A DNA stretch of 64,000 bases, from IMG/VR virus record IMGVR_UViG_3300020202_000068, positions 1-64,000 of that record. One strand, given 5' to 3'. Both the position numbers and the translations under genes were made by a program. The notes under the pieces are model-generated. The model was not told where the DNA came from, did no database searches, and saw nothing but the letters and a program-made list of their open reading frames with translations. This document shows positions 3,200 to 59,115 of the stretch, piece after piece. Position 1 is the first letter of the stretch; every line of letters begins with the position of its first letter. The stretch is from a virus.

Positions 3200-4510
3200 A
3201 TGGTCACGGCAATCGTGGGCCAGGGTCCGCCCTTGGCCAAATCCCTGCACCCTGGCAGGCTGGTGAAGCTGCTCCAAGCCAGCAAGACCCAGGTGGGCTA
3301 CAACCACCGCCCGCCCGTCAATCGCGTCCTGCGGGTCCACAGTAAATACAGCTGGAAGGAGCAGCCCTGCGTTTACCTCCAGGATGAGCTAACCGGTACC
3401 ACCTACGGCACCACCGAGCTGGACAGCGTGTTCGCGGCGGTCAGTCGGCGCGAGAAGGCCGAATACCGGGACGAACTCACGAAGCTCTACATCTCCGGGA
3501 AACGCTCCCTGGGGGGTAATGGCTGTGGGGGACGCGGGACCGACCCGGAGGTGTTCGTGGTGAACGGGGAGGGCGAGATCATCCCCGCCTACCTGTTCCT
3601 CCCGTCCAAGGCCGCGCCGCTCTATATGAAGGGGGCCCTGGGGGACGTGAAGGCCTTCTACGACGGCTTCCAGGCTGAGTTCACGGTCGGCGTGGCTGGC
3701 TGCCACGAGAACCTCTGTCACGATGTCCGGTTGGGATTGAAGTCGATCTACGAGGCGGCTAAGAAGCTCGACCCCACAGCCAAGCTGACACATCAATGCG
3801 TCCTGGACCTGCCTGAGCACGTTTGGGCCACCACCCCCGCTGAGCAGCGAGTCTTGGGCTGCGATCCCTCCTCGAATGTCTATTTCGAGGGACCGAATCC
3901 CCGCCTGGGAACCGCCGAGGAGCTGCCTTTCCGCTTTGCGGGCTGCCACCTGCATTATGCGATCGGCAGCGATCAGTCCCTGAAGGCTAAGCAGGGGATC
4001 GTGAAGCTCCTGGATGCGATCTCGGGGGTCTGCTCAGTCAGCCTCCTGCGGGGCCTGGAAGACCCGCGTCGCCGGGCCTTCTATGGCCTGGCGGGGGAAT
4101 ACCGGCTGCCGCAGCACGGGCTGGAATGGCGGACGCTGAGTTCCGCGATTCTGATCCACCCGGTCGTTTGGCATTTGGTCTGCGATCTGTCCCGGAAGGT
4201 CGTGGCGATTGCCTTGAGCGATCAGGCCTTTATCTGGGACTGCTCCGCTGATGAGGCTCAGCAGGTCATTAACGACCTGAACGTCCCGCTGGCCGAAGAG
4301 ATCATCCACCGCAACGAGAAAGCCTTACACGCGATCTTGCTCGGCACGTATGGAGCCCAGGAGGTCATCGAGAAGTCCACCCGGCTGATCCTGGAAGGGG
4401 CGGAGAACTGCCTGCCATCGCTGGATGTGGTCGCCAACTGGCACCTCAACGAGGCCCAGTGGCCCCGCCAACCGCAAATGAGAAACACCACACTCAAGGC
4501 GAAGCCATGA
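3200..4510 (+). CDS. phiEco32-like COOH-NH2 ligase type 2 (glutamine synthetase-like fold)
   Basis: GTDPEVF, DGFQAEF, GCDP, RFAGCHLH, RRAFYGLAGEYR, GLEWRTLS motifs. Confidence 0.88.
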   Translation: MVTAIVGQGPPLAKSLHPGRLVKLLQASKTQVGYNHRPPVNRVLRVHSKYSWKEQPCVYLQDELTGTTYGTTELDSVFAAVSRREKAEYRDELTKLYISGKRSLGGNGCGGRGTDPEVFVVNGEGEIIPAYLFLPSKAAPLYMKGALGDVKAFYDGFQAEFTVGVAGCHENLCHDVRLGLKSIYEAAKKLDPTAKLTHQCVLDLPEHVWATTPAEQRVLGCDPSSNVYFEGPNPRLGTAEELPFRFAGCHLHYAIGSDQSLKAKQGIVKLLDAISGVCSVSLLRGLEDPRRRAFYGLAGEYRLPQHGLEWRTLSSAILIHPVVWHLVCDLSRKVVAIALSDQAFIWDCSADEAQQVINDLNVPLAEEIIHRNEKALHAILLGTYGAQEVIEKSTRLILEGAENCLPSLDVVANWHLNEAQWPRQPQMRNTTLKAKP

Positions 4511-5037
4511 CGGGTTACCTGCAAAATATCCTTCTTCAACCGCACCACCAAAGGAGCAATGCCGTGTCTGTTACCGCATCTATCAACCCCCTGCCGGTGT
4601 ACGTCACCGATGCAGACGTGAACCGGGTAGCACCCAAGAAAGAGGAGGATTGGGTCGTTAATTTTGGCGACCCGAACGACAGCGTTGAAGAGTTTCCGTT
4701 CTGCTGTGCCATCGGCGTCATCGGGCACGCGATCGCCACTGAAGGTGACTACGACCGAGAGATTGAGAGCCTCACGCCGCAGCACGGAGAAGCCTTCTTG
4801 AAAGCCATGAAGGAGGAGGTGGCTGGACGTTCTCGGGAAGGTCTAATCCTCTACACCGTCACCGACAACCAAGTGGTGGAGCGGGCAGGCCTGGAGGCGG
4901 TTGGCTTTCAAATCATGGCCGTCTTCAAGAACCCTAAGACCGGCAATCGGATCACGCTTTACGGTCTTTTGGTGAACCAGCCGCGTAGCCGGCCGGTCCA
5001 CCCTAAGGCCGCGAAGAAGAAGCTGAAGCGTAAATAG
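4507..5037 (+). CDS. hypothetical protein
   Basis: ATGA overlap with ligase gene. Confidence 0.65.
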   Translation: MTGYLQNILLQPHHQRSNAVSVTASINPLPVYVTDADVNRVAPKKEEDWVVNFGDPNDSVEEFPFCCAIGVIGHAIATEGDYDREIESLTPQHGEAFLKAMKEEVAGRSREGLILYTVTDNQVVERAGLEAVGFQIMAVFKNPKTGNRITLYGLLVNQPRSRPVHPKAAKKKLKRK

Positions 5038-5084
5038 TCCAGCCCTAGCTTTCGACAAAATGTAAGCGCAGGCTGCTTCTCACG

Positions 5085-5121
5085 GGCTCCGCCGGCTAAT
5101 AAGCTGGCGGGGCCTTTTTTT
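5085..5121 (+). terminator. intrinsic terminator
   Basis: 13-bp GC-rich stem GGCTCCGCCGGCT/AGCTGGCGGGGCC followed by T7. Confidence 0.85.
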
Positions 5122-5189
5122 GTTGAGTGGACGGACCAATGTTTGGTTCCTGTCACGAAGTCCCATGTTTTTCTTAGGAGGTAGGTTTC

Positions 5190-5612
5190 ATGGCTGTGAA
5201 AGCGACTATTGGTGGCGGTGGTCAGGTCGGCACGCTCTCGTTCAACGAGATCATCGGCTACACGCCGGGTCAGGGCCGGGGGGACGCGAAGAAGAACTGC
5301 TACCAGAATGTCAACAATGGCAACATTCTGGTCGTGTTCGGCGTCAACGCCCAGCTCGTCGAGTACGAGCGCCGGCCCAGCGGCAAGCGGACCAACCGCA
5401 CCGGACTGACGCGGGCCGGTATGTTCGTGATCGAGAAGAAGACGGGCAAGCTCCGTCCGGTGACGGCCGACCGCAGCCCTGATGGCAAGAAGGTTTGGGT
5501 GCCGTACTCGGGCTCGATCACCATCGGGGGTAACCCCCACGTCATCCAGCCAGGCCAGAACGCCCAGGCGGCTGGCAGCGACGAGTACGACGACGAAGAC
5601 GGCGAGGCCTAG
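5190..5612 (+). CDS. hypothetical protein, acidic C-terminus
   Basis: SD AGGAGGT, strong GC3 codon bias. Confidence 0.75.
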   Translation: MAVKATIGGGGQVGTLSFNEIIGYTPGQGRGDAKKNCYQNVNNGNILVVFGVNAQLVEYERRPSGKRTNRTGLTRAGMFVIEKKTGKLRPVTADRSPDGKKVWVPYSGSITIGGNPHVIQPGQNAQAAGSDEYDDEDGEA

Positions 5613-5628
5613 GCAATCTGGGCTAACC

Positions 5629-5670
5629 CAAAAGCGACATGACTGTGTCGCTTTTGACGTAAGTCCTTAT
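5629..5670. repeat. palindrome plus TAAGTCCTTAT element, copy 1
   Basis: CAAAAGCGACA-N6-TGTCGCTTTTG-ACGTAAGTCCTTAT; recurs at 31033 and 39333. Confidence 0.85.
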
Positions 5671-5774
5671 CCGACGTGAGTCGCGGAGGTCCGTTCACCG
5701 GCCCTGGGCAGTAGCTTAGGGCCGAGACGCGGTTTTCCCTGTCACAAAACCTAGAGGAGGAAGGAGGGGATGCT

Positions 5775-7970
5775 ATGCCCCAAAACAAACGCTTAGCGGG
5801 GGTTCTAGATACCGAACTCACCACGAAGCAAGTCGCCGATTGGCTCACCGAGCTGATCGAGAGATTCTCGAAAGCCGCCCCCAAGGGCTCCGGCGAGCGA
5901 ACCGCCAAGGACATCGTCAGCCCGCTCAAGAAGCGGGTGGAGGAGTACCTGGCCCATCGCAAGCAAGGCGACCCACATCGCACCTCAACCCACACCGACC
6001 TCTGTGAAGGAGTGCGATTCGCCCTCAACAGCTTCCGCAACATCATCAATGTAAAGTCGGTAGAGGGGCTCAACATCGAGCCCTATCAGGCCGTCGCGGA
6101 TCGGCGCTGGGAGGAAGTCGTCAATGCCCGGATCGAAGGCAAGCACTGGACGTTCCCGTGCTGCCACTGTGGCCGAGGCGGGACGGAGCTAATTGCAGAG
6201 AAGTATTTCTGCGTCCGCTGTCGGGATGTCTATACGGCCGTTTGCCGGGGGTGCGACGAGCGGTCGGATAAAGCCGACATGCGAGTCGTGACCAATGAAG
6301 ACGCGGCGGAGCTGTATTACTGCGAGGAGTGCGTCAGTGGGCTCGATACTCATGAATGCACGGCCTGTCACGTCCCTTACTTGGGGCGCGAGAACCACGG
6401 CCATCGGCACTCCGCCGAACTCAAGGCCGCTGGCATCTCCGCGTGCCGGAACTGCGCGCCTGGCTACCGGAAGCTGCACTGCGGGCACTGGTGGCCCAAC
6501 GGCGGACATCGGCAGGCGGTTGTCGTCGATACCGAGGACGACAATCGCGTCCGTGAGACCGTCATCGAGCAGGGGCAGCATGTCTGCGACAACTGCCTCG
6601 ACCGGCGACATCGGGACGATGCTTTGCCTGAGTTCTGGCGGCAGAAGGTCCCCAAGGTCAACGGCAGCCTCTTCACGGAGGTTGGCTCGCTACGGACGTT
6701 CGGGGTCGAGCTGGAGTTCTGCGAGGTCTATCAGATGCCTCGCATGAGCGACGACATTAAGAACTACTGGACCGCCAAGGAAGATGCCTCCCTGCCACGG
6801 GGCGGGGTGGAAATGGCTTCCACGATCCTCCATGGGGATGAAGGATTGCAGCGGATTCGCGAGCTATGCGAGTACGCTCATGCCCCGGAAGGCAACCCCA
6901 AGAAGAAGTGGGCCGTGGATGCCAGGAGTGGCTTTCATCTGCATGTGGGTCTGGCGACGGACAGCCAGGAGCAGGTGGCCGCGATTGCGATGGGGTATTT
7001 GCAGACGTACGAGCTGTGGCGGCTGTTTGTCGCTCCCAGCCGGACGAATAGCTGCAAGTATTGCCGCCGCAACCGGATCACCCCCGCTCAGCTCGTCGGC
7101 TATCAGCCTCGGGAGTACATCCAGAAGCTGACGGCTCTCGACGACCGGCGGGTGTGGTGCAATTGGCACTCCTATCCGGCTCGGCAGACTGTCGAGCTGC
7201 GGGTCCATCAGGGCACGAAGGTGTATGAGAAGATCGCGAATTGGGTCAAAGCCCATACGCGGTTCTGCGACTGGTGCGCCAGCCTGAAGAACCCCAAGAA
7301 GGTCTATGAGCGGCTCAAGGATTACGAGACGAAGCCGCGTGAGCTGTTTCTGATCGTGGCCCAGGAGGCCTGGAAGGATCGGGAGCTGGGTATGTGGTTC
7401 CGTAAGCGGGCAGAGGCGCTGCACGAGAAGGGCAATCGCCTCCTGTCGCATCGCAAGCTGCGGCAGAAAGGGATTGACCCGAAGGCAGTGCCGACGTTCA
7501 CCAACGGGACGCTGACCTTCAAGGGGAGAAGGCTGTTCGTGGTGGAGTACGAGCGGACAATCTACGTGATTGACCGCGAAAACATCCACGACTCGGGTGG
7601 CGTTAGATTCCTCCATCCAACCAAGGACGATTGGATCGCAAGCCCCAGTCGCCGATTTCTTACCCGAGAGGACGCCGAGAGGTGGTGCATTGAGCACGCT
7701 GATCAGAACCAAGTCCCAGTCGAGACGCTCGCGGACGAGATCGCTCGTCGCATAGCCCGGGCGAGCGAGAACCGGCGGGCACGTCCAGCGAATCGGGTTG
7801 TCATGCCGGAGTTCGCTATCAGCTCCGGGCCATGGACTCCTGATCCGCTGCCAGCGACTGTCGAGGTAACTGACGAGATCACGGCTGGCGATCGTCAGCT
7901 ATTAGATGATCTGGATGATGAGGACGAGCCAGAGGAAGAAGAGGAGTCGGTTGCGGACGACATCTTCTAA
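5775..7970 (+). CDS. amidoligase (Amidoligase_2-like) with N-terminal Zn-ribbon repeats
   Basis: RTFGVELE, EDASL, EMAS, SGFHLHVG, TVELRVHQGT motifs; multiple CxxC pairs. Confidence 0.85.
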   Translation: MPQNKRLAGVLDTELTTKQVADWLTELIERFSKAAPKGSGERTAKDIVSPLKKRVEEYLAHRKQGDPHRTSTHTDLCEGVRFALNSFRNIINVKSVEGLNIEPYQAVADRRWEEVVNARIEGKHWTFPCCHCGRGGTELIAEKYFCVRCRDVYTAVCRGCDERSDKADMRVVTNEDAAELYYCEECVSGLDTHECTACHVPYLGRENHGHRHSAELKAAGISACRNCAPGYRKLHCGHWWPNGGHRQAVVVDTEDDNRVRETVIEQGQHVCDNCLDRRHRDDALPEFWRQKVPKVNGSLFTEVGSLRTFGVELEFCEVYQMPRMSDDIKNYWTAKEDASLPRGGVEMASTILHGDEGLQRIRELCEYAHAPEGNPKKKWAVDARSGFHLHVGLATDSQEQVAAIAMGYLQTYELWRLFVAPSRTNSCKYCRRNRITPAQLVGYQPREYIQKLTALDDRRVWCNWHSYPARQTVELRVHQGTKVYEKIANWVKAHTRFCDWCASLKNPKKVYERLKDYETKPRELFLIVAQEAWKDRELGMWFRKRAEALHEKGNRLLSHRKLRQKGIDPKAVPTFTNGTLTFKGRRLFVVEYERTIYVIDRENIHDSGGVRFLHPTKDDWIASPSRRFLTREDAERWCIEHADQNQVPVETLADEIARRIARASENRRARPANRVVMPEFAISSGPWTPDPLPATVEVTDEITAGDRQLLDDLDDEDEPEEEEESVADDIF

Positions 7971-8014
7971 GCGTTAACTAACTGTCACAAACTCTTGATA
8001 AATAAGGACTTATC

Positions 8015-8245
8015 ATGGATCAATCAGATGGATTCAGGGGCCTACTGGACCGCGTGTCGGTCCATGGTCCTGAGATGTGGGAGAACGACACTGGTCCTCC
8101 TGGCTGGCACGCAGTCTCGCACGACGACCTAAGTATCGTCGCCTACTTCTTGTTTGAGGCTGACGCTTACCGCTATCGTCTGGACCTGATAAATCGGCTC
8201 CTGAACGAATTGCCTCCAGAGTTTCTGGGGGCCGGAAGTCAGTAG
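8015..8245 (+). CDS. hypothetical protein
   Basis: SD TAAGGA; overlapped by the 3' tail of the antisense HNH ORF. Confidence 0.55.
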   Translation: MDQSDGFRGLLDRVSVHGPEMWENDTGPPGWHAVSHDDLSIVAYFLFEADAYRYRLDLINRLLNELPPEFLGAGSQ

Positions 8246-8762
8246 TGCCGTCGTTCTTTTTGGAGTTGCAGGAGTGACACAGGGGCTGCCTGTTCGAGAT
8301 GCTGTTGGTGCCGCCAAGCGACACGGGGATCACATGGTCAGCGACCAGTCGATCCTTGCTGCCGCAAGCCAGACACCGATAGCCATAAACCGACAGGAGC
8401 AGCTCCCAGTCCTCTTCTGTCCAGGTTCCTCCTGCGGCGCGGAGGCGATCAACATACTGCCTCTCGTAGGCGCGTATCTTGGCCCTGTTCTTCTTGCGGT
8501 ACTCGGCCATGTAGGCTCTGGCCTTGGCCTTACCATCCTCAGAGGTTCTGTTGGCAGACTTACGTGCCTTTACGTCTGGATTGGCGTGATGCTCAGCTTG
8601 CTTTGCTCGCACCTTGTCGCCATGGGTGGCTTTATATCGCGCCCACCGGGCGGACTGACAGGCTCGGCAGTGAGGCTGCAAGCCGTCTTTAGCTGAGTGA
8701 CATTTAGCGAAATCCTCGACGAGTTTTTCGTGTTTGCAGGAGCAGCATGTTTTAGTTTCCAT
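8034..8762 (-). CDS. HNH endonuclease with N-terminal Zn finger (homing-type)
   Basis: CxxC..K....F N-terminus; CLACG...DHVIP...GG.N...N...LCHSCN. Confidence 0.85.
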   Translation of the reverse strand: METKTCCSCKHEKLVEDFAKCHSAKDGLQPHCRACQSARWARYKATHGDKVRAKQAEHHANPDVKARKSANRTSEDGKAKARAYMAEYRKKNRAKIRAYERQYVDRLRAAGGTWTEEDWELLLSVYGYRCLACGSKDRLVADHVIPVSLGGTNSISNRQPLCHSCNSKKNDGTTDFRPPETLEAIRSGADLSGPDDSGKRQPQTRSRRRYLGRRARLRASQEDQCRSPTSQDHGPTRGPVGP

Positions 8763-8768
8763 GCAGCT

Positions 8769-8796
8769 ACTGTATCATTTGCGAACTTACTGTCAA
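8769..8796 (-). promoter_or_regulatory. sigma70-like promoter of the HNH gene (leaderless)
   Basis: TTGACA-16-TACAGT with extended TG; ATG 6 nt after the -10. Confidence 0.6.
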
Positions 8797-8815
8797 GAAT
8801 AAAGGAGACCACAAA

Positions 8816-10354
8816 TTGTGCGGATTATTTGGCGGACTTGGTGCCAACATTAATGTCCATGCGGTGCGTCACCTCGCGGCTCTCAATGAGAGTCGGGGGC
8901 GTGACTCCGCTGGCTTCTTTGACCAGCATGGAGACTGGCTTAAGAAGGGTTATACCTCGATCACGGAGTGGCTCAAGGACGAAGGGCTGCGGGACAAGCT
9001 CCAGCGGATGTGCCTCACGGGGGCCGTCTGCGGGCATACCCGGGGCTCGACTCGTGGGAACCACAAGACCGAAAACGCCCATCCCTTCGCCTACGGCGAG
9101 GAGGGCAAGCAGGTAGTGCTCTCACACAACGGGGTGATCGACGCCCCGGCGAAGTACGACGTGGATTCGATGTACATGGCCGACTTGCTCGCTCAGGGCA
9201 AGCCTGGCCAGTACCAGGAGGCCTTGGGGGGTGTCTCGGGGTGGTACGTGCTGACCTGGCACGACGAGCGGACGGGTTGCATCTACTTCCTTAATTGGAC
9301 GGGCACTCTATGCTTCGCCCCGCTGGGGGACACGATCTACTACTCGTCCGCCAAGCAGCATCTCCAGCAGGTCCTGGCCCACCCTAAGATTCACGAGACG
9401 GTCTCGGGGGAGGTTTGGATGTGGACCGGCAAGAAGATGAAGCCGCTCAAGCACTTCACCGGGAAGGTGCGGACCTATACCCAGAGCAATAATTATGGCC
9501 AGCAATGGGACGACACCCGACCCTCTGGATCGGTTCTCAAGCTCCGCTCGACCGGCAAGTGGGTCGCCAACCTGCGTGGCGCTTACTTCGCGGAATTGAC
9601 CGACCAGGAGAAGTGGGAGGAGATGTACGGGAACGACCCCAACCCTTACACCTCCAATGGTAAGTGGCCCGGGTTTCAAGTGATCGAGGCGCATATCAAG
9701 AACGCGACCATCATTGACTTCGACGGCAAGCCCGTCTCCAAAAAGAAGCTGCGAAGAGGGATTCGCAGCTGGGTCGGTAACGACGACACCGAGCTGGAGG
9801 AGTCGGAGAAGCAGGGAGTGGTGGTCGTGGATAGTCCCGGCGTGGCCGATACCAAGGTTGTTACCACTGTCCAGAATGCCACCCCCGAGCAGAATGAGGC
9901 CCTCGATAAGTTCTTCTCAGACAACCAGATCGGCAAGGAGACGTGCGTGGCCTGTGAGGGAACGGGGCTGGCCACGCAAGGGAGTGAGTTACGCTGCCGG
10001 CCCTGTAACGGGACGGGCAAAATGATCGCTCACGCCCTCGTGAAGGCCGATGTCGCCAAGCGGGCGGCGGAGGCCGAAGCAGGGGACAACGTCGCCAAGG
10101 CCCTGGCCCTGCAAGAGGAGATCAATCGCAAACAGCGTGATCTTCGCTACCGGGACCGCTCCGATGCCTCGGCGGCTGCCAGAGCGGCCTTAAACGCCCA
10201 ATGGCAGAAGCTGAGGGCTAAGGGCATGGATGACGAGACGATCGGCAAGGAGCTGTGGAGGGCCGGATTCTACGAAGACATCTACGACCTGGACGAGAAA
10301 GACCTCCTCCCACTGCGGGGCTGGATGGAAAACGACGCCTTCGCCATGGACTAG
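8816..10354 (+). CDS. class II (Ntn) glutamine amidotransferase with C-terminal CxxCxGxG Zn finger
   Basis: MCGLFG, RGRDSAG, GHTR, NAHPF, HNGVI, DVDS motifs; TTG start after AAGGAG. Confidence 0.9.
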   Translation: MCGLFGGLGANINVHAVRHLAALNESRGRDSAGFFDQHGDWLKKGYTSITEWLKDEGLRDKLQRMCLTGAVCGHTRGSTRGNHKTENAHPFAYGEEGKQVVLSHNGVIDAPAKYDVDSMYMADLLAQGKPGQYQEALGGVSGWYVLTWHDERTGCIYFLNWTGTLCFAPLGDTIYYSSAKQHLQQVLAHPKIHETVSGEVWMWTGKKMKPLKHFTGKVRTYTQSNNYGQQWDDTRPSGSVLKLRSTGKWVANLRGAYFAELTDQEKWEEMYGNDPNPYTSNGKWPGFQVIEAHIKNATIIDFDGKPVSKKKLRRGIRSWVGNDDTELEESEKQGVVVVDSPGVADTKVVTTVQNATPEQNEALDKFFSDNQIGKETCVACEGTGLATQGSELRCRPCNGTGKMIAHALVKADVAKRAAEAEAGDNVAKALALQEEINRKQRDLRYRDRSDASAAARAALNAQWQKLRAKGMDDETIGKELWRAGFYEDIYDLDEKDLLPLRGWMENDAFAMD

Positions 10355-10485
10355 CACGGTGGACAACCACCCGGCCCTGGGAAACTGGGGCCGGAAACTT
10401 GTCAGATCGTGAAATGATGGCATTGACAGCCATCGTTCAGTTTTCTACATTGTCCGCGTCACACTTAATGAGGAGGTTCCTGAGG

Positions 10486-10950
10486 ATGCCCAGTGTTATG
10501 CAGATTCGCCGGATGGAGGAGTTCCGGGAATACTTTCGCCAGAAATGGGCGGGACGGGTCACGGATTGGGAGGTCGTCAAGCAGGATATGCTGGACAAGA
10601 ACCCTTGGCTCAATAAGGATCGCTGGCCCAATCTCCGCACGCAGCTGAAGAAGATCAACGATGAGTCAGTGGGTCGCCGGGAGTCGGCGGCACTCGTGCC
10701 GGCGGTGCCCGTCGCCCAGCACGAAGACAACGGCCAGGTGATGGAAATCCCCACACTAACACTCCCCCGCGAGCTGTCGGATGAGGCCCGGGAGTGCATC
10801 AACCGGCTCCTGGAGGAGAATCACCGACTCTCCACGGACATCAGCCTGAAGGAAATGGAGATGGGTGGGCAGAAGCAGCGGCTGGCTGGCCAAGAGGCCC
10901 GCGTGCGGCTGCTGAAGAAGATCGCATTCGAGGCCATTGATGCCCTGTAA
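10486..10950 (+). CDS. hypothetical coiled-coil protein
   Basis: SD AGGAGG upstream of ATG 10486. Confidence 0.65.
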   Translation: MPSVMQIRRMEEFREYFRQKWAGRVTDWEVVKQDMLDKNPWLNKDRWPNLRTQLKKINDESVGRRESAALVPAVPVAQHEDNGQVMEIPTLTLPRELSDEARECINRLLEENHRLSTDISLKEMEMGGQKQRLAGQEARVRLLKKIAFEAIDAL

Positions 10951-10966
10951 GGGAATTGGAAGGACC

Positions 10967-11060
10967 GTGCTAGTAGCTCAACGGTAGAGCGCCGCAGAAC
11001 AAGGACCGCGAAAGCGAGCACCGCCTACGGAGGTAGCTGGATCGTCACCAGCCTAGCACC
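10967..11060 (+). ncRNA. tRNA-like RNA with the anticodon loop replaced by a 29-nt insert
   Basis: acceptor GTGCTAG/CTAGCAC, D arm GCTC-AACGGTA-GAGC, T arm GCTGG-ATCGTCA-CCAGC; no 7-nt anticodon loop. Confidence 0.8.
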
Positions 11061-11062
11061 CT

Positions 11063-11233
11063 TGTCGGTGGAGAAAGGTCAACAAGTGCAACGAGGGTGG
11101 CGCTTAGGCCGTACCCAGCTGGGCACCCTCACCGAGCAGTGATCCGCGTGGAGCGACAAAATCCATTAGGTGTCGAAAAAGACACTGACCGAAGCGTCAA
11201 CCCCACCGGGTGAGCACACGCTGCCCACCGACA
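11063..11233 (+). ncRNA. multi-stem structured RNA of unknown class
   Basis: closing stem TGTCGGTGG/CCACCGACA plus at least four internal helices. Confidence 0.6.
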
Positions 11234-11241
11234 TAATACAC

Positions 11242-11310
11242 GGCAGGAGACGGGAACTGGATTATTTCACCCTTGGGTGGATGACCATGAAGAAGGGAAC
11301 GTCTCCTGCC
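11242..11310 (+). ncRNA. small structured RNA
   Basis: perfect 11-bp closing stem GGCAGGAGACG/CGTCTCCTGCC with an internal hairpin. Confidence 0.5.
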
Positions 11311-11322
11311 ACCTTATAAGGA

Positions 11323-11910
11323 GTGCTTATGATCGACACATTCAAGACTGCTGATGAATGGATGGAGGCAGTCAGGAAGGAAGGTCGCGAGGAGAAGGCG
11401 AAGCACCCGTTCCGCTACTTCATGCGGAGGACATGGCCACGGTTCTGGCGGTGCTATATCCACGAGCCCTGGTACTGGCTGAAGTGCCATGTTTGGCACC
11501 GCTATAACGTCCTGGTCATGCGGGATTTGCCGCCGACCTGGGTAGATCGAGACGTGGCGATCCTGCACGCCAACTTCCAGATACTGAAGGACTTTGTGGA
11601 GAAGGAGGATCGCGGTTCCGAGGAGTTCCCCGGTCACACCCAACGGTCCCGGGAGGACCTCATCAGCGACTACTGGATTTGTAAGGAACGGGAGTATTGG
11701 ACGGAAGAGCAGATCGCCGAGAGCAGGAAGTTCGCGGAACAGAGAGCGGACGACTGGATGGAAATCAAGGCTCTATACGACTGGTGGGAAGTGCGTCGTC
11801 GCGTTGGAGATGATGGCGACTGGGCTCCAGGAGCCGAGATGAATCAAGATCAAGAGGACACCGAGAAGCTCAAGCGGCTCATCGAGCTGCGTGGGTATCT
11901 CTGGAGTTAG
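11323..11910 (+). CDS. hypothetical phage protein
   Basis: SD TAAGGAG; Trp-rich, ends LKRLIELRGYLWS. Confidence 0.75.
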   Translation: MLMIDTFKTADEWMEAVRKEGREEKAKHPFRYFMRRTWPRFWRCYIHEPWYWLKCHVWHRYNVLVMRDLPPTWVDRDVAILHANFQILKDFVEKEDRGSEEFPGHTQRSREDLISDYWICKEREYWTEEQIAESRKFAEQRADDWMEIKALYDWWEVRRRVGDDGDWAPGAEMNQDQEDTEKLKRLIELRGYLWS

Positions 11911-20445: not shown

Positions 20446-20523
20446 CGGAGCCGCAGGGATCGCGGTGGCCGGCAAGGACCGTCGGCCTGGCAAGGACGCG
20501 ACCGGGCGAAGAGGCCCATTTTT
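20445..20523 (+). ncRNA. CsrB/RsmZ-like GGA-repeat RNA ending in a terminator
   Basis: ACGGA, CCGC-AGGGATC-GCGG, GGCCGGC-AAGGACC-GTCGGCC, GC-AAGGAC-GC, then GGGC/GCCC-ATTTTT. Confidence 0.65.
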
Positions 20524-34978: not shown

Positions 34979-35067
34979 CCCCGTATCGTTTAGTGGCAAG
35001 ACTTCGTGCAAAACTGGCCTCGGGCTGTAATTGCACGGTTCCCGGCGTTCGATTCCCGGTGCGGGGG
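34979..35067 (+). ncRNA. tRNA-like RNA with an extended hairpin instead of an anticodon loop
   Basis: acceptor CCCCGTA/TGCGGGG, D loop AGTGGCA, T loop TTCGATT; anticodon arm TCGTGCAA-AAC-TGGCC-TCG-GGCTG-TAA-TTGCACGG. Confidence 0.75.
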
Positions 35068-35069
35068 CT

Positions 35070-35141
35070 GAGTCCTTAGCCTAGAGGAGAGGCATCCGTC
35101 TTCTAAGCGGATATACGCTGGTTCGAATCCAGCAGGACTCG
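35070..35141 (+). tRNA. tRNA-Arg(TCT)
   Basis: GAGTCCT/AGGACTC acceptor, TCCGT-CTTCTAA-GCGGA anticodon arm, GCTGG-TTCGAAT-CCAGC T arm; CCA not encoded. Confidence 0.92.
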
Positions 35142-35246
35142 CTCACCAGCCTGGAAGAATGCCGATCCGCTGTGACGGATTCGCGTGGGTGACACACGAG
35201 ACGAGGTCTTGATCCGGGAGTCCGGGGAGCCAAAGTGATGCACGCC

Positions 35247-40191: not shown

Positions 40192-41904
40192 CTACTTCCG
40201 AGGACCTCGCTGCATGTCCTTGGTCTGCTTTCCCGTGATCTTTCCGGCGATATAGCGGCCAATTTTTCCAGCCCACGCCTGGGGACTGAATGGGTTGGTC
40301 AGGTCCATCGGCGATGCCGGTCCGGGCCGCATAGGTTTCTCGGTAAGGCCCAGGCCCAGTTCCTGGTCGCCGGTCGCTTCGCGGAGGATTTTGTCCTGGT
40401 CTTCCTTGTTTGTGACGCCATTCGCGGCTAGGTCGGCCCGGGCTCCTTCGATGTCACCGCCAGTAGCTTTATCTCGCACCGAACCAGTGACCTGTTCCGG
40501 CAGGCTGGGGGCCGTTGCCAGCGGCGGGGGCTTGGGCGCGGCTGGGCCGTTCTCAGCCTCCGTGCGGGCACGCTGGGCGTCCACGATAGCCTTGTTTCGA
40601 CCCTCAGCAATCTTCTCGTTGGAGGTGATCTGCCTCTCAGCTAAGCCGAGTCGCTTGTCAGCCATAAGCTGCTCACCGTTCATCCGTGCTTCCATTCCCT
40701 TGCGGGCCTGGTAGGCACCAGGATTGGCCGCAGCGAACCGCTCTTCCACGGTCAGGTGGCCACGCTTGACGCGCACCGCATCCCGTCGCCCCTTATCCTT
40801 TTCCTGGGCCTTGGCGGTCGCCAGCTCCCGCCGCTTACCGAGTTCCGCCTTGCGACCGGCGAGGTACTTCTGCCGGGCGGGAGCGCTGGCGGTATTGGCC
40901 TGCTTCGCAGCCTCCACCCGTTTGGCGGCACTGCTGCCCTGGTTCGGCGTCAGCGATCCACCAGGCGTCTCTGTGTACTGACCAGCTGGAAACTGAGGCT
41001 TCTGGGCAAGGTCAAGTTCCGGTCGTGGTGTCGGTTGGTAGCCGGTTGGCCGCTTATTGATGCTGGCCAGCATAGCCTCGCGGCCATTACCCTGGATGCC
41101 GATGTTTCGGGCAATCCGCAGGTCGTCCTCGGTGATATTTGGAGTCCCCTGACCGAAGTTCCCGCCGACCGTCGTGCGCGGCATGTGGCCGTGAGCTTGA
41201 TAAACCTGATTGGCTCCGTAGTTGCTTGGCAGCATTCCATTGCTGGCTGGGTTCGCCAGGGCATCTGCGTAATGCCCAGCACCGCTCACCGGCCCGCTGG
41301 GGAATCTCTGTTCGATATCCGGCATCGACCCTTGAAGGTTATGGTTGCCGCTGGAGATGGCTCTCAGGGCTTGTAGCGATGGATGATTATCGACCGGGCT
41401 CGGCGGCTGCATCGCCCGGGCTGCCGGGCTACCTGCGATACGGTCGGACTCTCCGCCAGGCGTGAAGATGCCGTACGGGGCATTGGGCCCGAGGTTCGGA
41501 TTCCGACCAGTCCTCATATACGCATCCCAGGCCTGAGCGTGGGGCAGCGGTTGTGCTGGAGCCGGAACTTGCGGAGCGACCGCCTGTGGCTGGACGGGTG
41601 TGCTTGGTTGTGGCCTGAGCGCCTCGGCGGCACCAGCTTCCATGCCTTGAAAAGGAGACGGCCCTGGCTGTGGAGGAGGCGGCGTGAGTTGGATGGGGTT
41701 CGGACGAGCCGCTACCGGGTGCTGCTGGCCCGCTACTGGCTGAGGCGTCAACCCAACGCTGGGAGGCCCAGGTTGAGCGTGGAGATACCCCTCCCGCGTC
41801 CCCGACGGGGCCATCTGCGGCCCCGGAGGCCGCCAGGGAGCCGATAATCCAGTCGGGGATTTGTATCCGGCAGTCCGCTTGTTCGCCGTGGTGGGATGGG
41901 GCAT
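40192..41904 (-). CDS. Pro/Gly/Ala-rich internal virion (ejection) protein, putative
   Basis: low-complexity N-terminus, helical C-terminus, late-strand position. Confidence 0.55.
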   Translation of the reverse strand: MPHPTTANKRTAGYKSPTGLSAPWRPPGPQMAPSGTREGYLHAQPGPPSVGLTPQPVAGQQHPVAARPNPIQLTPPPPQPGPSPFQGMEAGAAEALRPQPSTPVQPQAVAPQVPAPAQPLPHAQAWDAYMRTGRNPNLGPNAPYGIFTPGGESDRIAGSPAARAMQPPSPVDNHPSLQALRAISSGNHNLQGSMPDIEQRFPSGPVSGAGHYADALANPASNGMLPSNYGANQVYQAHGHMPRTTVGGNFGQGTPNITEDDLRIARNIGIQGNGREAMLASINKRPTGYQPTPRPELDLAQKPQFPAGQYTETPGGSLTPNQGSSAAKRVEAAKQANTASAPARQKYLAGRKAELGKRRELATAKAQEKDKGRRDAVRVKRGHLTVEERFAAANPGAYQARKGMEARMNGEQLMADKRLGLAERQITSNEKIAEGRNKAIVDAQRARTEAENGPAAPKPPPLATAPSLPEQVTGSVRDKATGGDIEGARADLAANGVTNKEDQDKILREATGDQELGLGLTEKPMRPGPASPMDLTNPFSPQAWAGKIGRYIAGKITGKQTKDMQRGPRK

Positions 41905-42120
41905 TGTCGTTCCTTCTATTGGCTAGTTGGCGACCATCCTGGCCGCATAACGATCAGTTATTTACCGGACAATCGTTCACTAGAAATCCTACCACAAGGC
42001 GATTCCAATGGACCTGTCGGGTGGATCGTCCGTAAAAATCCACGCCAGGACCAGGAAATGCTGGTGATCGGCCGTCAATGTGTCGTCAAAATGTCAATAC
42101 GGACAGGGAGGTGTCCCATC

Positions 42121-42318
42121 TTGGTGCTATCACGAAAAAAAGGCGAACGTCTTATTATCGGCGAGGACATCGCGATTGAGGTCGTCGAGGTCAGGGGAGA
42201 CCGCGTCAGGCTCGGCCTGGAGGCACCGGACTATGTATCCATCGTCCGGGAGGAGCTATTAGACGTGCTGCGGGAGCAGGCGCAGCGCGAGACTAGGCTG
42301 GCGAGGGCAGCCGGCTAG
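42121..42318 (+). CDS. csrA: carbon storage regulator CsrA/RsmA
   Basis: (M)LVLSRKKGERLIIGEDIAIEVVEVRGDRVRLGLEAP..V.IVREEL with the conserved R44 equivalent; TTG start after GGGAGG. Confidence 0.95.
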   Translation: MVLSRKKGERLIIGEDIAIEVVEVRGDRVRLGLEAPDYVSIVREELLDVLREQAQRETRLARAAG

Positions 42319-57318: not shown

Positions 57319-59115
57319 TTAAACGGCAGCCCCTGGTCCGAAGTGGACGTACTTGCCACCGTTTTCTAGGTTCATTTGGCTGATCAGGCCCATGGCCGTG
57401 TGATAGGCCATGCTGCCTTGTCCTTTGCGGTTCTCAGGGGTGATGTAGGCCGTACCGTCCCGGAAGCGGCCGGCGATGTATTCGGCGATGTATTCGACGC
57501 ACATCACGCAGTCGTTCACTCGTTCGGCCTCACCGTCGTCCGTGGGGACGCTTTCCCCTTCGGCATTCTTGACTTCCTTCTTACGGAAGCTGCGGACCTC
57601 GCTGATCGTCAACGGGCATCGCTGCGAGAAGAGGAGACGTGGCCAGCCCCGTTCCGTGGGCTCCATGAGGTCGCGGACCATCCGGCGACGGAGGGCCTTG
57701 TCATTGCAGCCCCGCATAAAGCCGTGCTTCGTGACCCGGCTCTCCAAGCCCTTCTTGCGAAACTCTTCCTCATAAGCCGCGAAGACGGTAGAGTCTGAGC
57801 CGACCGAGGTCTGACGACCCACCATCTGATCCATCACAAAGGCCTCGAACTTCAGGTCCCCGACCCGCGAAGCCACCACCCCCGCAAACATGGAGGGCGT
57901 ATGTTTTCTGACGATGATCTCTTCTTCAATGATCAGCCGATTGCCCAGCTCTTTGAATGTCGGGGGCGGGACGACGCAGACCAGGGCGGCGGTGCGGGTA
58001 TGGCTCGGGTCGATCACCAGGTAGCGGGTCCAGTTGGCCGGCAATCGGTTCGGGTTTTTAGCCAAGAGCGAGCAGATCGCCTTCCAGGCGTTCTCTTCCT
58101 GCTCCTTTTCCAGGAACTCCTGCGGCTTCACGATATGCAGGGCCGAGCCGAAGTTGTACATCAACCGCCCGCTAATGAACGCACTGATGTCACCCTGGTT
58201 ACGATGGGCCTCATCGTCGTCGTTATCCATCCGCTCGATCATTTCCTGGAGACCGAGCTTGTCGGAGTAGGGATTATCGACGCTGACCAGACGGAAGACT
58301 TTGATTGGTGGTTTGTTGGTTTCCTTTTCCCCGCCGGGCTCGTACCGTTTGGCCCGCTCGATGGTTTTGATCAGGGCTTCATTGGCGACCTGCGGCCACA
58401 CCGACCACAGGAACCAGCCCCGAGTCGTGGCCAGACGATCCTGCCATTCCTTGAGGTAAGAGCCCTTATCCACGTCCTCGTCGATCCAGATGCCATCGAC
58501 GGCGTCTCCCTTCTTCGGGCTGTCCCCGGTGCTGGGATAGGCGCAGATCGTGGCTCCGTTGGTGAGCCGCACGCTCTTGAAGACGTTGCCGGCCGCACTC
58601 TCCATGTGCCAACTCTTGGGCACGATCATGTGCTCGCCAAACAGCGGCGGGGAGAGCTGGCTCTCGTTGTACCGCTCCCGGTCGAAGTTGGGGTTATAGG
58701 CCCGCCACTTCCTGGTGGTCAGGTCCTGGATGATGCGGAAGTTCGCTCCCTCTCCGAGGCCCGGGGCGAAGAGTCGGTGATAGAGGGTTTGGCCGATATG
58801 GTTCACGTCGAACCCAATTACCCAATAAAGGCCCGGGTTCTTTTTGCTGGGAGCCCGAAACCGGAGTGGTATTTGAGTCCCGTCTTCGCGGGTGATCGGG
58901 ATGCCGAGAATGCGGCTGGCGAACTCCATCACCACCGCGATGGTCTTGCCCGACCGCTTTCCTCCGATGGTCAGGACCTCACTAGCCGACGACTCGTGAA
59001 CCGGGAGTTGGAACTGGGTCGGTCGATAGACGTGGAGCGGGTGCTGCTCGCGCAGCTCTAGCTCTAGCAAGCCCTTCTTGATCGTCTGGAGTTCGTATTT
59101 ATTCGATCCCGGCAT
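57319..59115 (-). CDS. terL: terminase large subunit
   Basis: Walker A GGKRSGKT, Walker B GIWIDE, DNPY, IDPS nuclease motif, C-terminal DC. Confidence 0.9.
   Translation of the reverse strand: MPGSNKYELQTIKKGLLELELREQHPLHVYRPTQFQLPVHESSASEVLTIGGKRSGKTIAVVMEFASRILGIPITREDGTQIPLRFRAPSKKNPGLYWVIGFDVNHIGQTLYHRLFAPGLGEGANFRIIQDLTTRKWRAYNPNFDRERYNESQLSPPLFGEHMIVPKSWHMESAAGNVFKSVRLTNGATICAYPSTGDSPKKGDAVDGIWIDEDVDKGSYLKEWQDRLATTRGWFLWSVWPQVANEALIKTIERAKRYEPGGEKETNKPPIKVFRLVSVDNPYSDKLGLQEMIERMDNDDDEAHRNQGDISAFISGRLMYNFGSALHIVKPQEFLEKEQEENAWKAICSLLAKNPNRLPANWTRYLVIDPSHTRTAALVCVVPPPTFKELGNRLIIEEEIIVRKHTPSMFAGVVASRVGDLKFEAFVMDQMVGRQTSVGSDSTVFAAYEEEFRKKGLESRVTKHGFMRGCNDKALRRRMVRDLMEPTERGWPRLLFSQRCPLTISEVRSFRKKEVKNAEGESVPTDDGEAERVNDCVMCVEYIAEYIAGRFRDGTAYITPENRKGQGSMAYHTAMGLISQMNLENGGKYVHFGPGAAV

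What the first reader, a model, noticed from the sequence alone, without database searches (positions are those of the whole stretch)
10967..11060. tRNA scaffold displaying a non-anticodon insert that contains CAAGGAC
Seen: perfect 7-bp acceptor stem, canonical D arm, 5-bp T stem with an atypical loop (ATCGTCA), and anticodon stem CCGCA/TACGG enclosing 29 nt (GAACAAGGAC-CGC-GAAA-GCG-AGCACCGCC) rather than a 7-nt loop. The insert has the same CAAGGAC word as the sponge at 20473/20491 and a GNRA hairpin. Perfect flanking stems argue against a decayed tRNA. Inference: a natural tRNA-scaffolded aptamer (stable CsrA decoy), a decoy for tRNA-targeting defence, or an RNase P/Z processing module that releases the downstream RNAs.
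Basis: partly seen in the sequence, partly recalled or inferred. Interest (0 to 1): 0.8.

Follow-up and report, generated by a model that had tools for sequence, protein, structure and literature searches.

The report
Anticodon-less tRNA-shaped phage RNA gene
A soil phage carries a gene for an RNA that folds like a transfer RNA, but the part that should read the genetic code is replaced by a 29-base insert; similar overlooked genes occur in the model Streptomyces phage phiC31 and its relatives, and their job is unknown.

Summary
Window 10967-11060 (+) has a perfect 7-bp acceptor stem, a canonical D arm and a 5-bp T stem. Where a 7-nt anticodon loop should be there are 29 nt, including a stable CGC-GAAA-GCG hairpin.

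Two corrections. The "anticodon stem" CCGCA/TACGG has a C·A mismatch and is not favoured by folding. CAAGGAC is a common word here (23 copies, 9 expected).

ARAGORN (with or without introns) and Rfam miss the element. A covariance model built from look-alikes in phiC31-type Streptomyces phages finds it at 57 bits.

In that phiC31-type family (16+ members, mostly unannotated or called tRNA-Gly) every helix covaries. The would-be anticodon sits in a hexamer that is always a palindrome, so it is a conserved non-decoding tRNA mimic, not an intron-bearing or decayed tRNA. The window copy shares the design. Its insert is not demonstrably homologous, and it has no close relatives.

Best reading: a tRNA mimic that cannot decode, matured by tRNA-processing enzymes, acting as a stable RNA that binds some partner.

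The phage does encode CsrA, so a CsrA decoy is not excluded, but the evidence is weak.

The scan had separately noted a second such mimic at 34979-35067 in this window.

The parts
10967..11060 (+). whole tRNA-shaped RNA (94 nt to the discriminator base); no CCA encoded
   Evidence: Sequence. MFE and centroid form the acceptor, D and T helices. Model R1 scores 57.4 bits, E 9e-12, full length.
10967..10973 (+). acceptor stem, 5' strand GTGCTAG (pairs with 11053-11059 CTAGCAC)
   Evidence: 7 Watson-Crick pairs.
10976..10990 (+). D arm GCTC-AACGGTA-GAGC with G18G19
   Evidence: Identical in type to the D arms of phiC31-type elements.
10992..11030 (+). enlarged anticodon arm: CCGCA, 29-nt insert, TACGG. 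The closing stem has a C·A mismatch (extendable to CCGCAG/CTACGG).
   Evidence: The stem is not formed in the MFE or ensemble. The R1 alignment flags non-standard pairs there.
11000..11006 (+). CAAGGAC word (ACAAGGA resembles the core of a CsrA site or a Shine-Dalgarno sequence). It lies where phiC31-type elements have a palindromic hexamer.
   Evidence: Unpaired probability is 0.98-1.0 for ACAA and the final A; the two G have 0.2-0.25 because of a weak CC/GG pairing. Position by structural parse.
11007..11016 (+). GNRA hairpin CGC-GAAA-GCG, followed by AGCAC (11017-11021)
   Evidence: The only robust helix inside the insert. Same letters as phiC31's hairpin and trailing GCAC.
11036..11052 (+). 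T arm GCTGG-ATCGTCA-CCAGC (A54/U58 swap)
10960..10967 (+). AAGGACCG in the 5' leader, the same 8-mer as 11001-11008, 41 nt upstream. It would be cut off by RNase P.
   Evidence: 5 copies in the window, 2.6 expected, not significant on its own.
11060..11065 (+). CCTTGT at the start of the 3' trailer, perfect complement of ACAAGG (10999-11004)
   Evidence: Read. The chance of such a 6-mer somewhere in the 278 flanking bases of the gap is about 7% (my estimate). Meaning unknown.

Best explanation
It is a gene for a non-decoding tRNA mimic.

Shown: the acceptor, D and T arms can build the tRNA L-shape. Where the anticodon loop should be there is a 29-nt insert with a stable GNRA hairpin, so the RNA has no 7-nt loop with U33 and cannot read a codon.

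Inferred: it lies 16 nt behind the stop of ORF 10255-10950, on the same strand, and is co-transcribed with it. RNase P and the 3' tRNA-processing enzymes cut it out, and CCA is added. These enzymes read only the acceptor/T-arm half. The result is a stable small RNA.

Most likely role (inferred, about one chance in three within this reading): it acts as a decoy or sponge. It would occupy a protein that recognises the tRNA body or the displayed insert without entering translation. Candidates are a tRNA-targeting host defence or toxin, or another RNA-binding protein.

It belongs to a loose and so far unnamed class of phage tRNA-shaped genes with enlarged anticodon arms. The best-defined family of that class is the phiC31-type element.
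For: - tRNA body: three perfect helices, 16 bp in all, plus G18G19 and U55C56. R1 scores 57.4 bits.
- No usable anticodon loop: ARAGORN makes no call with or without introns; only at lowered thresholds does it give 'tRNA-??? (caag)'. Rfam tRNA gives no match.
- The design is used on purpose. A second element in the same phage has a long anticodon-arm hairpin, 2 nt before a normal tRNA-Arg.
- phiC31-type elements keep the same layout: anticodon stem, a loop of 8 nt, a tetraloop hairpin, then YGCA. Every helix shows compensatory changes: 98.5% of cells paired, 7 pairs changed on both sides, 0 of 500 shuffles reach the score (anticodon arm alone).
- Those elements always sit between the same two early genes on the coding strand. 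They are phage-borne: found in 2 of 151 Streptomyces genomes.
- A scan of IMG/VR gave 91 distinct tRNA-shaped genes with 8-26 extra nt. In at least 34 of them the anticodon stem closes an enlarged loop.
- The T54/A58 to A54/U58 change alters both partners of one tertiary pair, which looks compensated rather than decayed (tRNA structure from my knowledge).
Against: - No expression, processing or binding data exist. No RNA run is available.
- The window element is a singleton, so its own structure cannot be tested by covariation. No relative was found by pattern scans or through flanking proteins, and the four soil runs are identical.
- Its closing anticodon stem is weak (C·A mismatch), the 15-48 pair would be A·A, and the T loop is atypical. 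These could equally be early decay.
- A model of the phiC31-type anticodon arm alone does not find the window insert at E 10 or better. Homology of the insert is therefore unproven, and the 49-nt BLAST match to phiC31 (E 0.009) leans partly on the generic D arm.
- No candidate partner protein was identified. Pfam and PHROGs gave no tRNA-related enzyme nearby.
Confidence: 0.5

Rival explanations
1. tRNA-scaffolded CsrA binder. The single-stranded ACAAGGAC in the insert, and in the precursor the second AAGGACCG 41 nt upstream, bind CsrA (the phage's own or the host's). The RNA titrates CsrA, or CsrA controls its maturation.
For: - The phage encodes a CsrA domain (PF02599, 68.1 bits). Its nearest Atlas clusters are mostly Planctomycetota, so the host probably has a Csr system too.
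- ACAAGGA equals the core of the published CsrA SELEX consensus (my knowledge).
- The flanking ACAA and the final A are unpaired in the ensemble.
- The same 8-mer AAGGACCG lies at 10960, 11001 and 20474, the last in a GGA-rich non-coding stretch.
- One other csrA-bearing phage contig type (L077, L115) also has an enlarged tRNA-shaped gene about 470 nt upstream of csrA.
Against: - There is one site in the mature RNA, whereas known sponges carry many.
- GGA is not enriched in the 372-nt gap: 14 against 10.0 +/- 3.5, and 13.5% of same-sized windows reach 14.
- CAAGGAC is frequent throughout the transcribed strand.
- The GGA is not in a simple hairpin loop.
- The second mimic's anticodon arm and the L077 insert have no GGA.
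- The look-alike phiC31-type module exists in Streptomyces genomes without csrA: 0 of 4, with controls positive.
- In L077 a gene and a terminator separate the tRNA-like gene from csrA.
Confidence: 0.15
2. Pure processing signal. The tRNA shape only recruits RNase P and a 3' endonuclease to cut the early polycistronic transcript. This uncouples the upstream mRNA from the structured 260-nt leader and the gene at 11330. The excised RNA itself has no job.
For: - The element lies 16 nt after a stop codon, on the coding strand, and is followed by a structured gap (fold z -1.97, 11-bp stem at 11242-11310).
- phiC31-type elements lie 8-25 nt behind one ORF and 35-40 nt before the next.
- phiBT1 keeps the identical tRNA body but has only a plain 9-nt-loop hairpin as its anticodon arm, so the body alone is kept there.
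- tRNA-like punctuation is established in mitochondria and in murid herpesvirus 68 (my knowledge).
Against: In the phiC31-type family the insert is itself conserved and covaries: a palindromic hexamer, a tetraloop hairpin and the GCA motif. A mere cutting signal would not need this. No transcript ends are known.
Confidence: 0.2
3. A dead tRNA gene: a former tRNA disrupted by an insertion in its anticodon loop and now drifting.
For: C·A mismatch in the anticodon stem, atypical T loop, A15·A48, C73 discriminator, no relatives. Rfam's tRNA model no longer recognises it.
Against: - All 16 pairs of the three tRNA helices are intact.
- The 54/58 change is double and reciprocal.
- A second element of the same design is present in the same compact genome.
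- Whole conserved families of this design exist.
Confidence: 0.1
4. An intron-containing tRNA whose insert is removed to give a decoding tRNA.
For: The insert sits in the anticodon loop, the usual place for tRNA introns. In some phiC31-type members (Sebastisaurus type), removing 15 nt after position 37 would leave AUCCGGA, a plausible loop.
Against: - ARAGORN's intron mode makes no call.
- The window has no U33 in any register.
- Across phiC31-type members the triplet so exposed would be CCG, CTA or CAT, changing amino-acid identity among close relatives while staying inside a palindrome.
- Short protein-spliced tRNA introns and their endonuclease are not known in bacteria (my knowledge).
- The metagenome hits with true 37/38 introns look entirely different.
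Confidence: 0.03

Closest known systems
phiC31-type tRNA-like gene. It lies between gp13 and gp14 of Streptomyces phage phiC31 and is unannotated in NC_001978. In phage Lilbooboo it is annotated 'tRNA-Gly' (gene 37), and ARAGORN calls it tRNA-Gly(ccc).
   Same: tRNA body with the same D arm. An anticodon stem closes an enlarged loop that holds a 3-4-bp tetraloop hairpin followed by NGCAC. The letters GAGCGCCGCA, GGAC, GCGAAAGCG and GCAC are shared with phiC31 itself. It sits inside an operon on the coding strand. R1, built from this family, scores the window element 57.4 bits.
   Different: The window has no palindromic hexamer (CAAGGA instead). It has about 7 extra nt, a mismatched closing stem and a non-canonical T loop. 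The phage is unrelated (77 kb, probably not an actinophage). The arm-only model R2 does not detect the window element.
Canonical tRNA (Rfam RF00005)
   Same: 7-bp acceptor stem, D arm with GG, 5-nt variable loop, 5-bp T stem with UCG in a 7-nt loop.
   Different: No 7-nt anticodon loop and no U33. There are 29 nt in its place. A54/U58. Not detected by RF00005 or ARAGORN.
Engineered 'tRNA scaffold' for expressing recombinant RNAs (Ponchon and Dardel 2007; my knowledge)
   Same: The anticodon stem-loop is replaced by a foreign structured insert, while the tRNA body provides folding, processing and nuclease resistance.
   Different: That one is man-made. Here the design is natural, and nothing is known about stability or processing.
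Viral and cellular tRNA-like RNAs cut out by RNase P and RNase Z: murid herpesvirus 68 vtRNAs, MALAT1 mascRNA (my knowledge)
   Same: tRNA-shaped, processed like tRNA, not used in decoding. vtRNAs release downstream small RNAs.
   Different: Those are eukaryotic systems with no sequence relation, and they keep short anticodon-like arms.
CsrB/RsmZ-type CsrA sponges
   Same: One exposed A(N)GGA-type motif. A csrA gene is in the same genome.
   Different: Sponges carry many GGA loops. Here there is one per mature RNA and no GGA enrichment, and the scaffold is tRNA-shaped.
Bacterial Y-RNA-like YrlA with a tRNA-like module (my knowledge)
   Same: A non-decoding RNA that mimics the tRNA D/T elbow and carries a protein-binding stem in place of the anticodon arm.
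   Different: In YrlA the RNA ends are on the protein-binding stem, not on the acceptor stem. No Rfam match here. No Ro/Rsr gene was seen among the ORFs scanned.

Membership tests
canonical tRNA | 7-bp acceptor stem, D arm with G18G19, 5-bp T stem | tested here: met
canonical tRNA | 5-bp anticodon stem closing a 7-nt loop with U33 and a purine at 37 | tested here: not met
   29 nt between the strands, C·A mismatch, no U33 in any register.
canonical tRNA | Recognised by the standard models (Rfam RF00005, ARAGORN) | tested here: not met
   In contrast, phiC31-type and other enlarged elements do pass RF00005.
canonical tRNA | T loop T54-Psi55-C56-R57-A58 | tested here: inconclusive
   The loop is AUCGUCA. 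Positions 55-57 are kept, and 54 and 58 are exchanged.
intron-containing tRNA | Removing a contiguous insert restores a canonical anticodon loop with a consistent anticodon | tested here: not met
   ARAGORN -i makes no call. In the relatives the would-be anticodon varies between CCG, CTA and CAT.
phiC31-type tRNA-like element | Anticodon stem, A, 6-nt palindrome, tetraloop hairpin, YGCA, then the 3' stem strand | tested here: inconclusive
   The hairpin and GCAC are present. The hexamer CAAGGA is not palindromic and there are extra nt on both sides. R1 is positive, R2 negative.
phiC31-type tRNA-like element | Canonical T loop TTCGAAT and a 15-48 tertiary pair | tested here: not met
   ATCGTCA and A15/A48, against G15-C48 or A15-U48 in most family members.
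phiC31-type tRNA-like element | Location between the gp13-like and gp14-like early genes of phiC31-like phages | tested here: not met
   No homologues of these genes in the window. Different neighbours.
CsrB/RsmZ-type sponge | Several GGA motifs in hairpin loops of one RNA | tested here: not met
   One ACAAGGA-type (CsrA-consensus) site in the mature RNA; the other GGA triplets there (11029, 11039) do not fit it. GGA density in the gap is not above background.
CsrB/RsmZ-type sponge | Binding to CsrA | not testable with these tools
   csrA is present in the phage. No RNA-protein test is available.
tmRNA / tRNA-like domain | Alanine-type acceptor (G3·U70), no D stem, tag reading frame | tested here: not met
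   G3-C70, a full D stem, and no ARAGORN tmRNA call.
substrate of RNase P and 3' tRNA processing | 12-bp acceptor/T-arm stack with a D/T elbow | tested here: met
   The 7+5 bp stack and the GG/UC elbow letters are present. Cleavage itself is not testable here.

The most novel reading that the evidence does not exclude
Phages use the tRNA fold as a natural display scaffold. The window RNA would present a CsrA-type site to the CsrA that this phage itself encodes. The phiC31-type relatives would present a covarying 6-nt palindrome flanked by A's, laid out like the HIV-1 dimerisation loop, which lets two tRNA mimics kiss into a dimer. Together these would define a new class of trans-acting phage RNAs built on anticodon-less tRNAs.
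Probability: 0.15. Interest if true: 0.85.

Novelty: new variant of a known kind. Interest (0 to 1): 0.6.

Why it matters
tRNA genes are the most routinely annotated phage RNAs. They are read as codon-supply or anti-defence devices.

This work shows a set of phage genes that keep the tRNA body under selection but cannot decode. One sits in phiC31, a model phage sequenced in the 1990s, where the element is unannotated or mislabelled tRNA-Gly.

If these RNAs are decoys for tRNA-targeting defences, protein sponges or dimerising regulators, they are a new layer of phage-host conflict. They would also be a natural precedent for the engineered tRNA scaffold.

phiC31 and Streptomyces coelicolor offer an immediate genetic system to test this. 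The window copy adds a link to a phage-encoded CsrA that could be tested in vitro.

Tried and rejected
- Exact-motif scans of IMG/VR for the insert returned only phiC31 plus chance matches inside genes.
- A scan for the window's D arm plus its odd T loop found nothing in IMG/VR. In metagenomes it found only chance hits and eukaryote-type tRNAs with 37/38 introns.
- The flanking proteins 10255-10950 and 11323-11910 have no relatives in IMG/VR. The 598-aa ORF 57319-59115 (unassigned function) has no match in the phage collection. Relatives of this phage could therefore not be used.
- Sequencing runs: no RNA holder listed. Four soil DNA runs hold the stretch with no differing letter, so no population variation is available.
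- The anticodon-arm-only model R2 does not find the window insert. The idea that the insert is a recognisable homologue of the phiC31 module is not supported.
- A conserved neighbouring gene was sought across 19 loci. Only HNH endonucleases recur, and these are common in phages. In the window the HNH gene is 2.2 kb away on the other strand.
- K-turn, SRP domain IV-like (AGG...GNRA...AGCA) and loop-E readings of the internal loop were considered by eye. Registers do not match, and Rfam gives no SRP hit.
- The alternative pairing of the palindrome's CCC with the 3' anticodon-stem strand, suggested by RNAfold, is not supported by covariation. The canonical anticodon stem is.
- Literature searches found no description of these elements. 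The 1999 phiC31 genome paper is not held.

Full report
**What is in the window.**
Positions 10967-11060 (+) read as follows:
- acceptor strand GTGCTAG;
- TA;
- D arm GCTC-AACGGTA-GAGC;
- G;
- CCGCA, a 29-nt insert, TACGG;
- AGGTA;
- T arm GCTGG-ATCGTCA-CCAGC;
- acceptor strand CTAGCAC;
- discriminator C.

The minimum-energy and centroid folds both form the acceptor, D and T helices and a CGC-GAAA-GCG hairpin inside the insert. With the three tRNA helices fixed, the ensemble keeps only that hairpin firmly paired. Alternative weak pairings compete with it.

ARAGORN finds one tRNA in the window, tRNA-Arg(TCT) at 35070-35142, and not this element. With the intron option it still finds nothing. Only at lowered thresholds does it print 'tRNA-??? 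(caag)'. Rfam gives no family at gathering scores, and no tRNA match at E 10 or better on the 601-base stretch 10800-11400 around the element.

The element lies 16 nt after the stop of ORF 10255-10950, on the same strand. A 262-nt non-coding stretch follows before the next gene.

**Relatives.**
A sensitive BLAST of the gap against 50,697 phage records returned phiC31 as its best match: 49 nt covering the D arm, the 5' anticodon-stem strand and most of the insert, 81.6% identity, E 0.009.

At that place phiC31 has an 87-nt tRNA-shaped gene between gp13 and gp14. The reference record does not annotate it. ARAGORN calls it tRNA-Gly(ccc) only by forcing a poor stem.

Using it as a query, together with two specific pattern scans and a genus-wide model search, I collected the following:
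- the same element from phages Lilbooboo (annotated tRNA-Gly), Euratis, Vash, Samora, Sebastisaurus, RemusLoopin and Heather;
- further copies on IMG/VR contigs of about 41 kb;
- copies in Streptomyces chromosomes, found in 2 of 151 genomes sampled, so it is carried by prophages and is not a host gene.

Its layout is: 4-bp anticodon stem; an A·C or G·A opposition at positions 31/39; A; a hexamer; R; a 3-4-bp hairpin with a GAAA, GCAA, GTAA or TTCG loop; Y; GCA; then the 3' stem strand.

All five helices covary. 98.5% of cells are paired, 7 pairs change on both sides, and no shuffle in 500 reaches the covariation score. Sliding the partners destroys the signal. The anticodon arm alone gives the same result on ten diverse members. 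The 15-48 tertiary pair switches between G-C and A-U.

This is therefore a structured RNA under selection, not a relic.

**Why it is not a decoding or intron-bearing tRNA.**
If 15 nt were removed after position 37, the exposed triplet would be CCG in phiC31 and Sebastisaurus, CTA in L094, L291 and L296, and CAT in L142. That would change identity among close relatives.

What is conserved instead is that the hexamer holding this triplet is a perfect palindrome in every member: CCCGGG, TCCGGA, CCTAGG, CCATGG, and ACCCGGGT in a shorter variant. A contiguous palindrome cannot pair within one molecule. The simplest reading is a loop-loop contact between two copies. This is inference only.

phiBT1 keeps an identical tRNA body but has a plain hairpin with a 9-nt loop as its anticodon arm.

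**How the window element relates to this family.**
A covariance model built only from eight phiC31-type sequences (R1) finds the window element over its full length at 57.4 bits. The same model gives 46.8 bits to the ordinary tRNA-Arg with the arm skipped. It also gives 18.4 bits to a second odd element at 34979-35067.

By structural parse the window has the hairpin (the same ten letters as phiC31) and the trailing GCAC. It has CAAGGA where the palindrome should be, about 7 extra nt, and a non-canonical T loop. A model of the anticodon arm alone (R2) does not find the window insert at E 10 or better.

So the window RNA shares the design, and its nearest look-alike is phiC31. Homology of the insert is not established.

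I found no closer relative. Scans for its D arm plus T loop gave nothing in IMG/VR and only unrelated hits in metagenomes. Its flanking proteins have no relatives. Four soil-metagenome runs carry the stretch without a single difference.

**A wider class.**
I scanned IMG/VR for this type of D arm and a canonical T arm separated by 34-52 nt instead of about 26. It gave 91 distinct sequences with at least 6 of 7 acceptor pairs:
- 25 have a normal anticodon arm plus a long variable region (21 with anticodon TAT, 4 with TCC);
- at least 34 have an anticodon stem closing an enlarged loop or arm;
- some giant-virus contigs carry eukaryote-type introns.

Most of those tested pass Rfam's tRNA model. 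Enlarged-arm tRNA-shaped genes are thus common in phages. The window phage has two of them.

**The CsrA idea.**
The phage does encode CsrA (ORF ending at 42318; PF02599, 68.1 bits). Its nearest Atlas clusters are mostly Planctomycetota, so a Csr system in the host is plausible.

In favour:
- ACAAGGA equals the core of the known CsrA consensus (my knowledge). Its flanking bases are unpaired in the ensemble, although the two G have a weak competing pairing.
- A second AAGGACCG lies 41 nt upstream in the leader, and a third at 20474.

Against:
- CAAGGAC occurs 23 times along the transcribed strands.
- GGA is not enriched in the gap.
- The second mimic's anticodon arm has no GGA.
- The phiC31-type module thrives in Streptomyces genomes without csrA: 0 of 4, with controls positive.

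One other csrA-bearing contig type also has an enlarged tRNA-shaped gene nearby. A gene and a terminator lie between the two.

I rate this reading at about 0.15.

**Context.**
The upstream genes are a phiEco32-type COOH-NH2 ligase, an amidoligase, an HNH endonuclease (opposite strand) and a protein with a class-II glutamine amidotransferase N-terminus. Nothing tRNA-related was recognised among 25 further ORFs.

The 380-nt gap folds somewhat better than shuffles (z -1.97). It ends in an 11-bp stem just before the next gene's ribosome-binding site.

**Verdict.**
The most likely identity is a non-decoding tRNA mimic matured by the tRNA-processing machinery.

Its role is open. The candidates are a decoy for a tRNA-binding or RNA-binding protein, a transcript-processing signal, or, less likely, a CsrA binder.

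I found no description of this class in the searchable literature.

Noticed in passing
window 34979-35067 (+), 2 nt before tRNA-Arg(TCT) 35070-35142: A second tRNA-shaped element without an anticodon loop. Acceptor CCCCGTA/TGCGGGG. The anticodon arm is a 7-8-bp stem (CGTGCAA/TTGCACG), an internal loop and a GGCC-TCG-GGCT hairpin. R1 scores 18.4 bits. ARAGORN misses it at default settings.
   Followed up: partly
L001 1495-1581 (phiC31) and relatives L042-L049, L075, L094, L113, L142, L291-L297: In phiC31-type tRNA-like genes the hexamer after the anticodon stem is always a perfect palindrome and changes by paired substitutions (CCCGGG, TCCGGA, CCTAGG, CCATGG). It is flanked A...R, like the HIV-1 dimerisation loop. 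This suggests RNA-RNA kissing dimers. The downstream (G)TGCA(C) is often palindromic too.
   Followed up: partly
L046 605-678 (phiBT1): phiBT1 keeps the phiC31 tRNA body letter for letter but has only CCCCC-GACGTTCGA-GGGGG as its anticodon arm (9-nt loop, no hairpin module).
   Followed up: no
IMG/VR loci L052-L170: 21 distinct phage tRNAs with anticodon TAT (Ile, AUA) carry a long, class-II-like variable arm of about 20 nt, and 4 with anticodon TCC (Gly) have an enlarged variable region. L111 has a roughly 17-bp anticodon stem ending in a normal-looking 7-nt loop. L105, L125 and L086 have other palindromes (GGGCCC, AAGCTT, GGCCGGCC) at the start of the enlarged loop.
   Followed up: partly
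window 41896-42318 (+), CsrA domain from about 42121: Phage-encoded CsrA (PF02599, 68 bits), lying on the + strand among long - strand ORFs. Its nearest Atlas clusters are mostly Planctomycetota, a hint to the host.
   Followed up: partly
window 3200-10354 (+): A run of predicted amide-bond enzymes just upstream of the tRNA-like gene: phiEco32-type COOH-NH2 ligase (3200-4510), Amidoligase_2 (5775-7970), and a 512-aa protein with a class-II glutamine amidotransferase N-terminus (8816-10354).
   Followed up: no
window 10999-11004 and 11060-11065: ACAAGG in the insert is perfectly complementary to CCTTGT, which starts at the discriminator base and runs into the 3' trailer. The pairing is impossible within one folded L-shape, so it would have to be an alternative fold or form between molecules. 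About 7% expected by chance.
   Followed up: no
window 10960, 11001, 20474: The 8-mer AAGGACCG occurs in the leader of the tRNA-like RNA, in its insert, and in the GGA-rich non-coding stretch after 20445. Overall there are 5 copies against 2.6 expected.
   Followed up: partly
window 11242-11310: An 11-bp perfect stem, GGCAGGAGACG/CGTCTCCTGCC, encloses about 47 nt directly upstream of the AAGGAG ribosome-binding site and the ATG at 11330.
   Followed up: no
L077 1498-1595, 1622-1748 and 2064-2260 (also L115): Another phage contig type has an enlarged tRNA-shaped gene, then a roughly 125-nt element with a 7-bp acceptor-like closing stem and a canonical T arm. An Xis-like gene, a terminator and a csrA gene follow.
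   Followed up: partly
runs X1-X4: The phage stretch is present, letter for letter, in four soil-metagenome runs of 2018 from four studies. Two of them may be the source of the record.
   Followed up: yes
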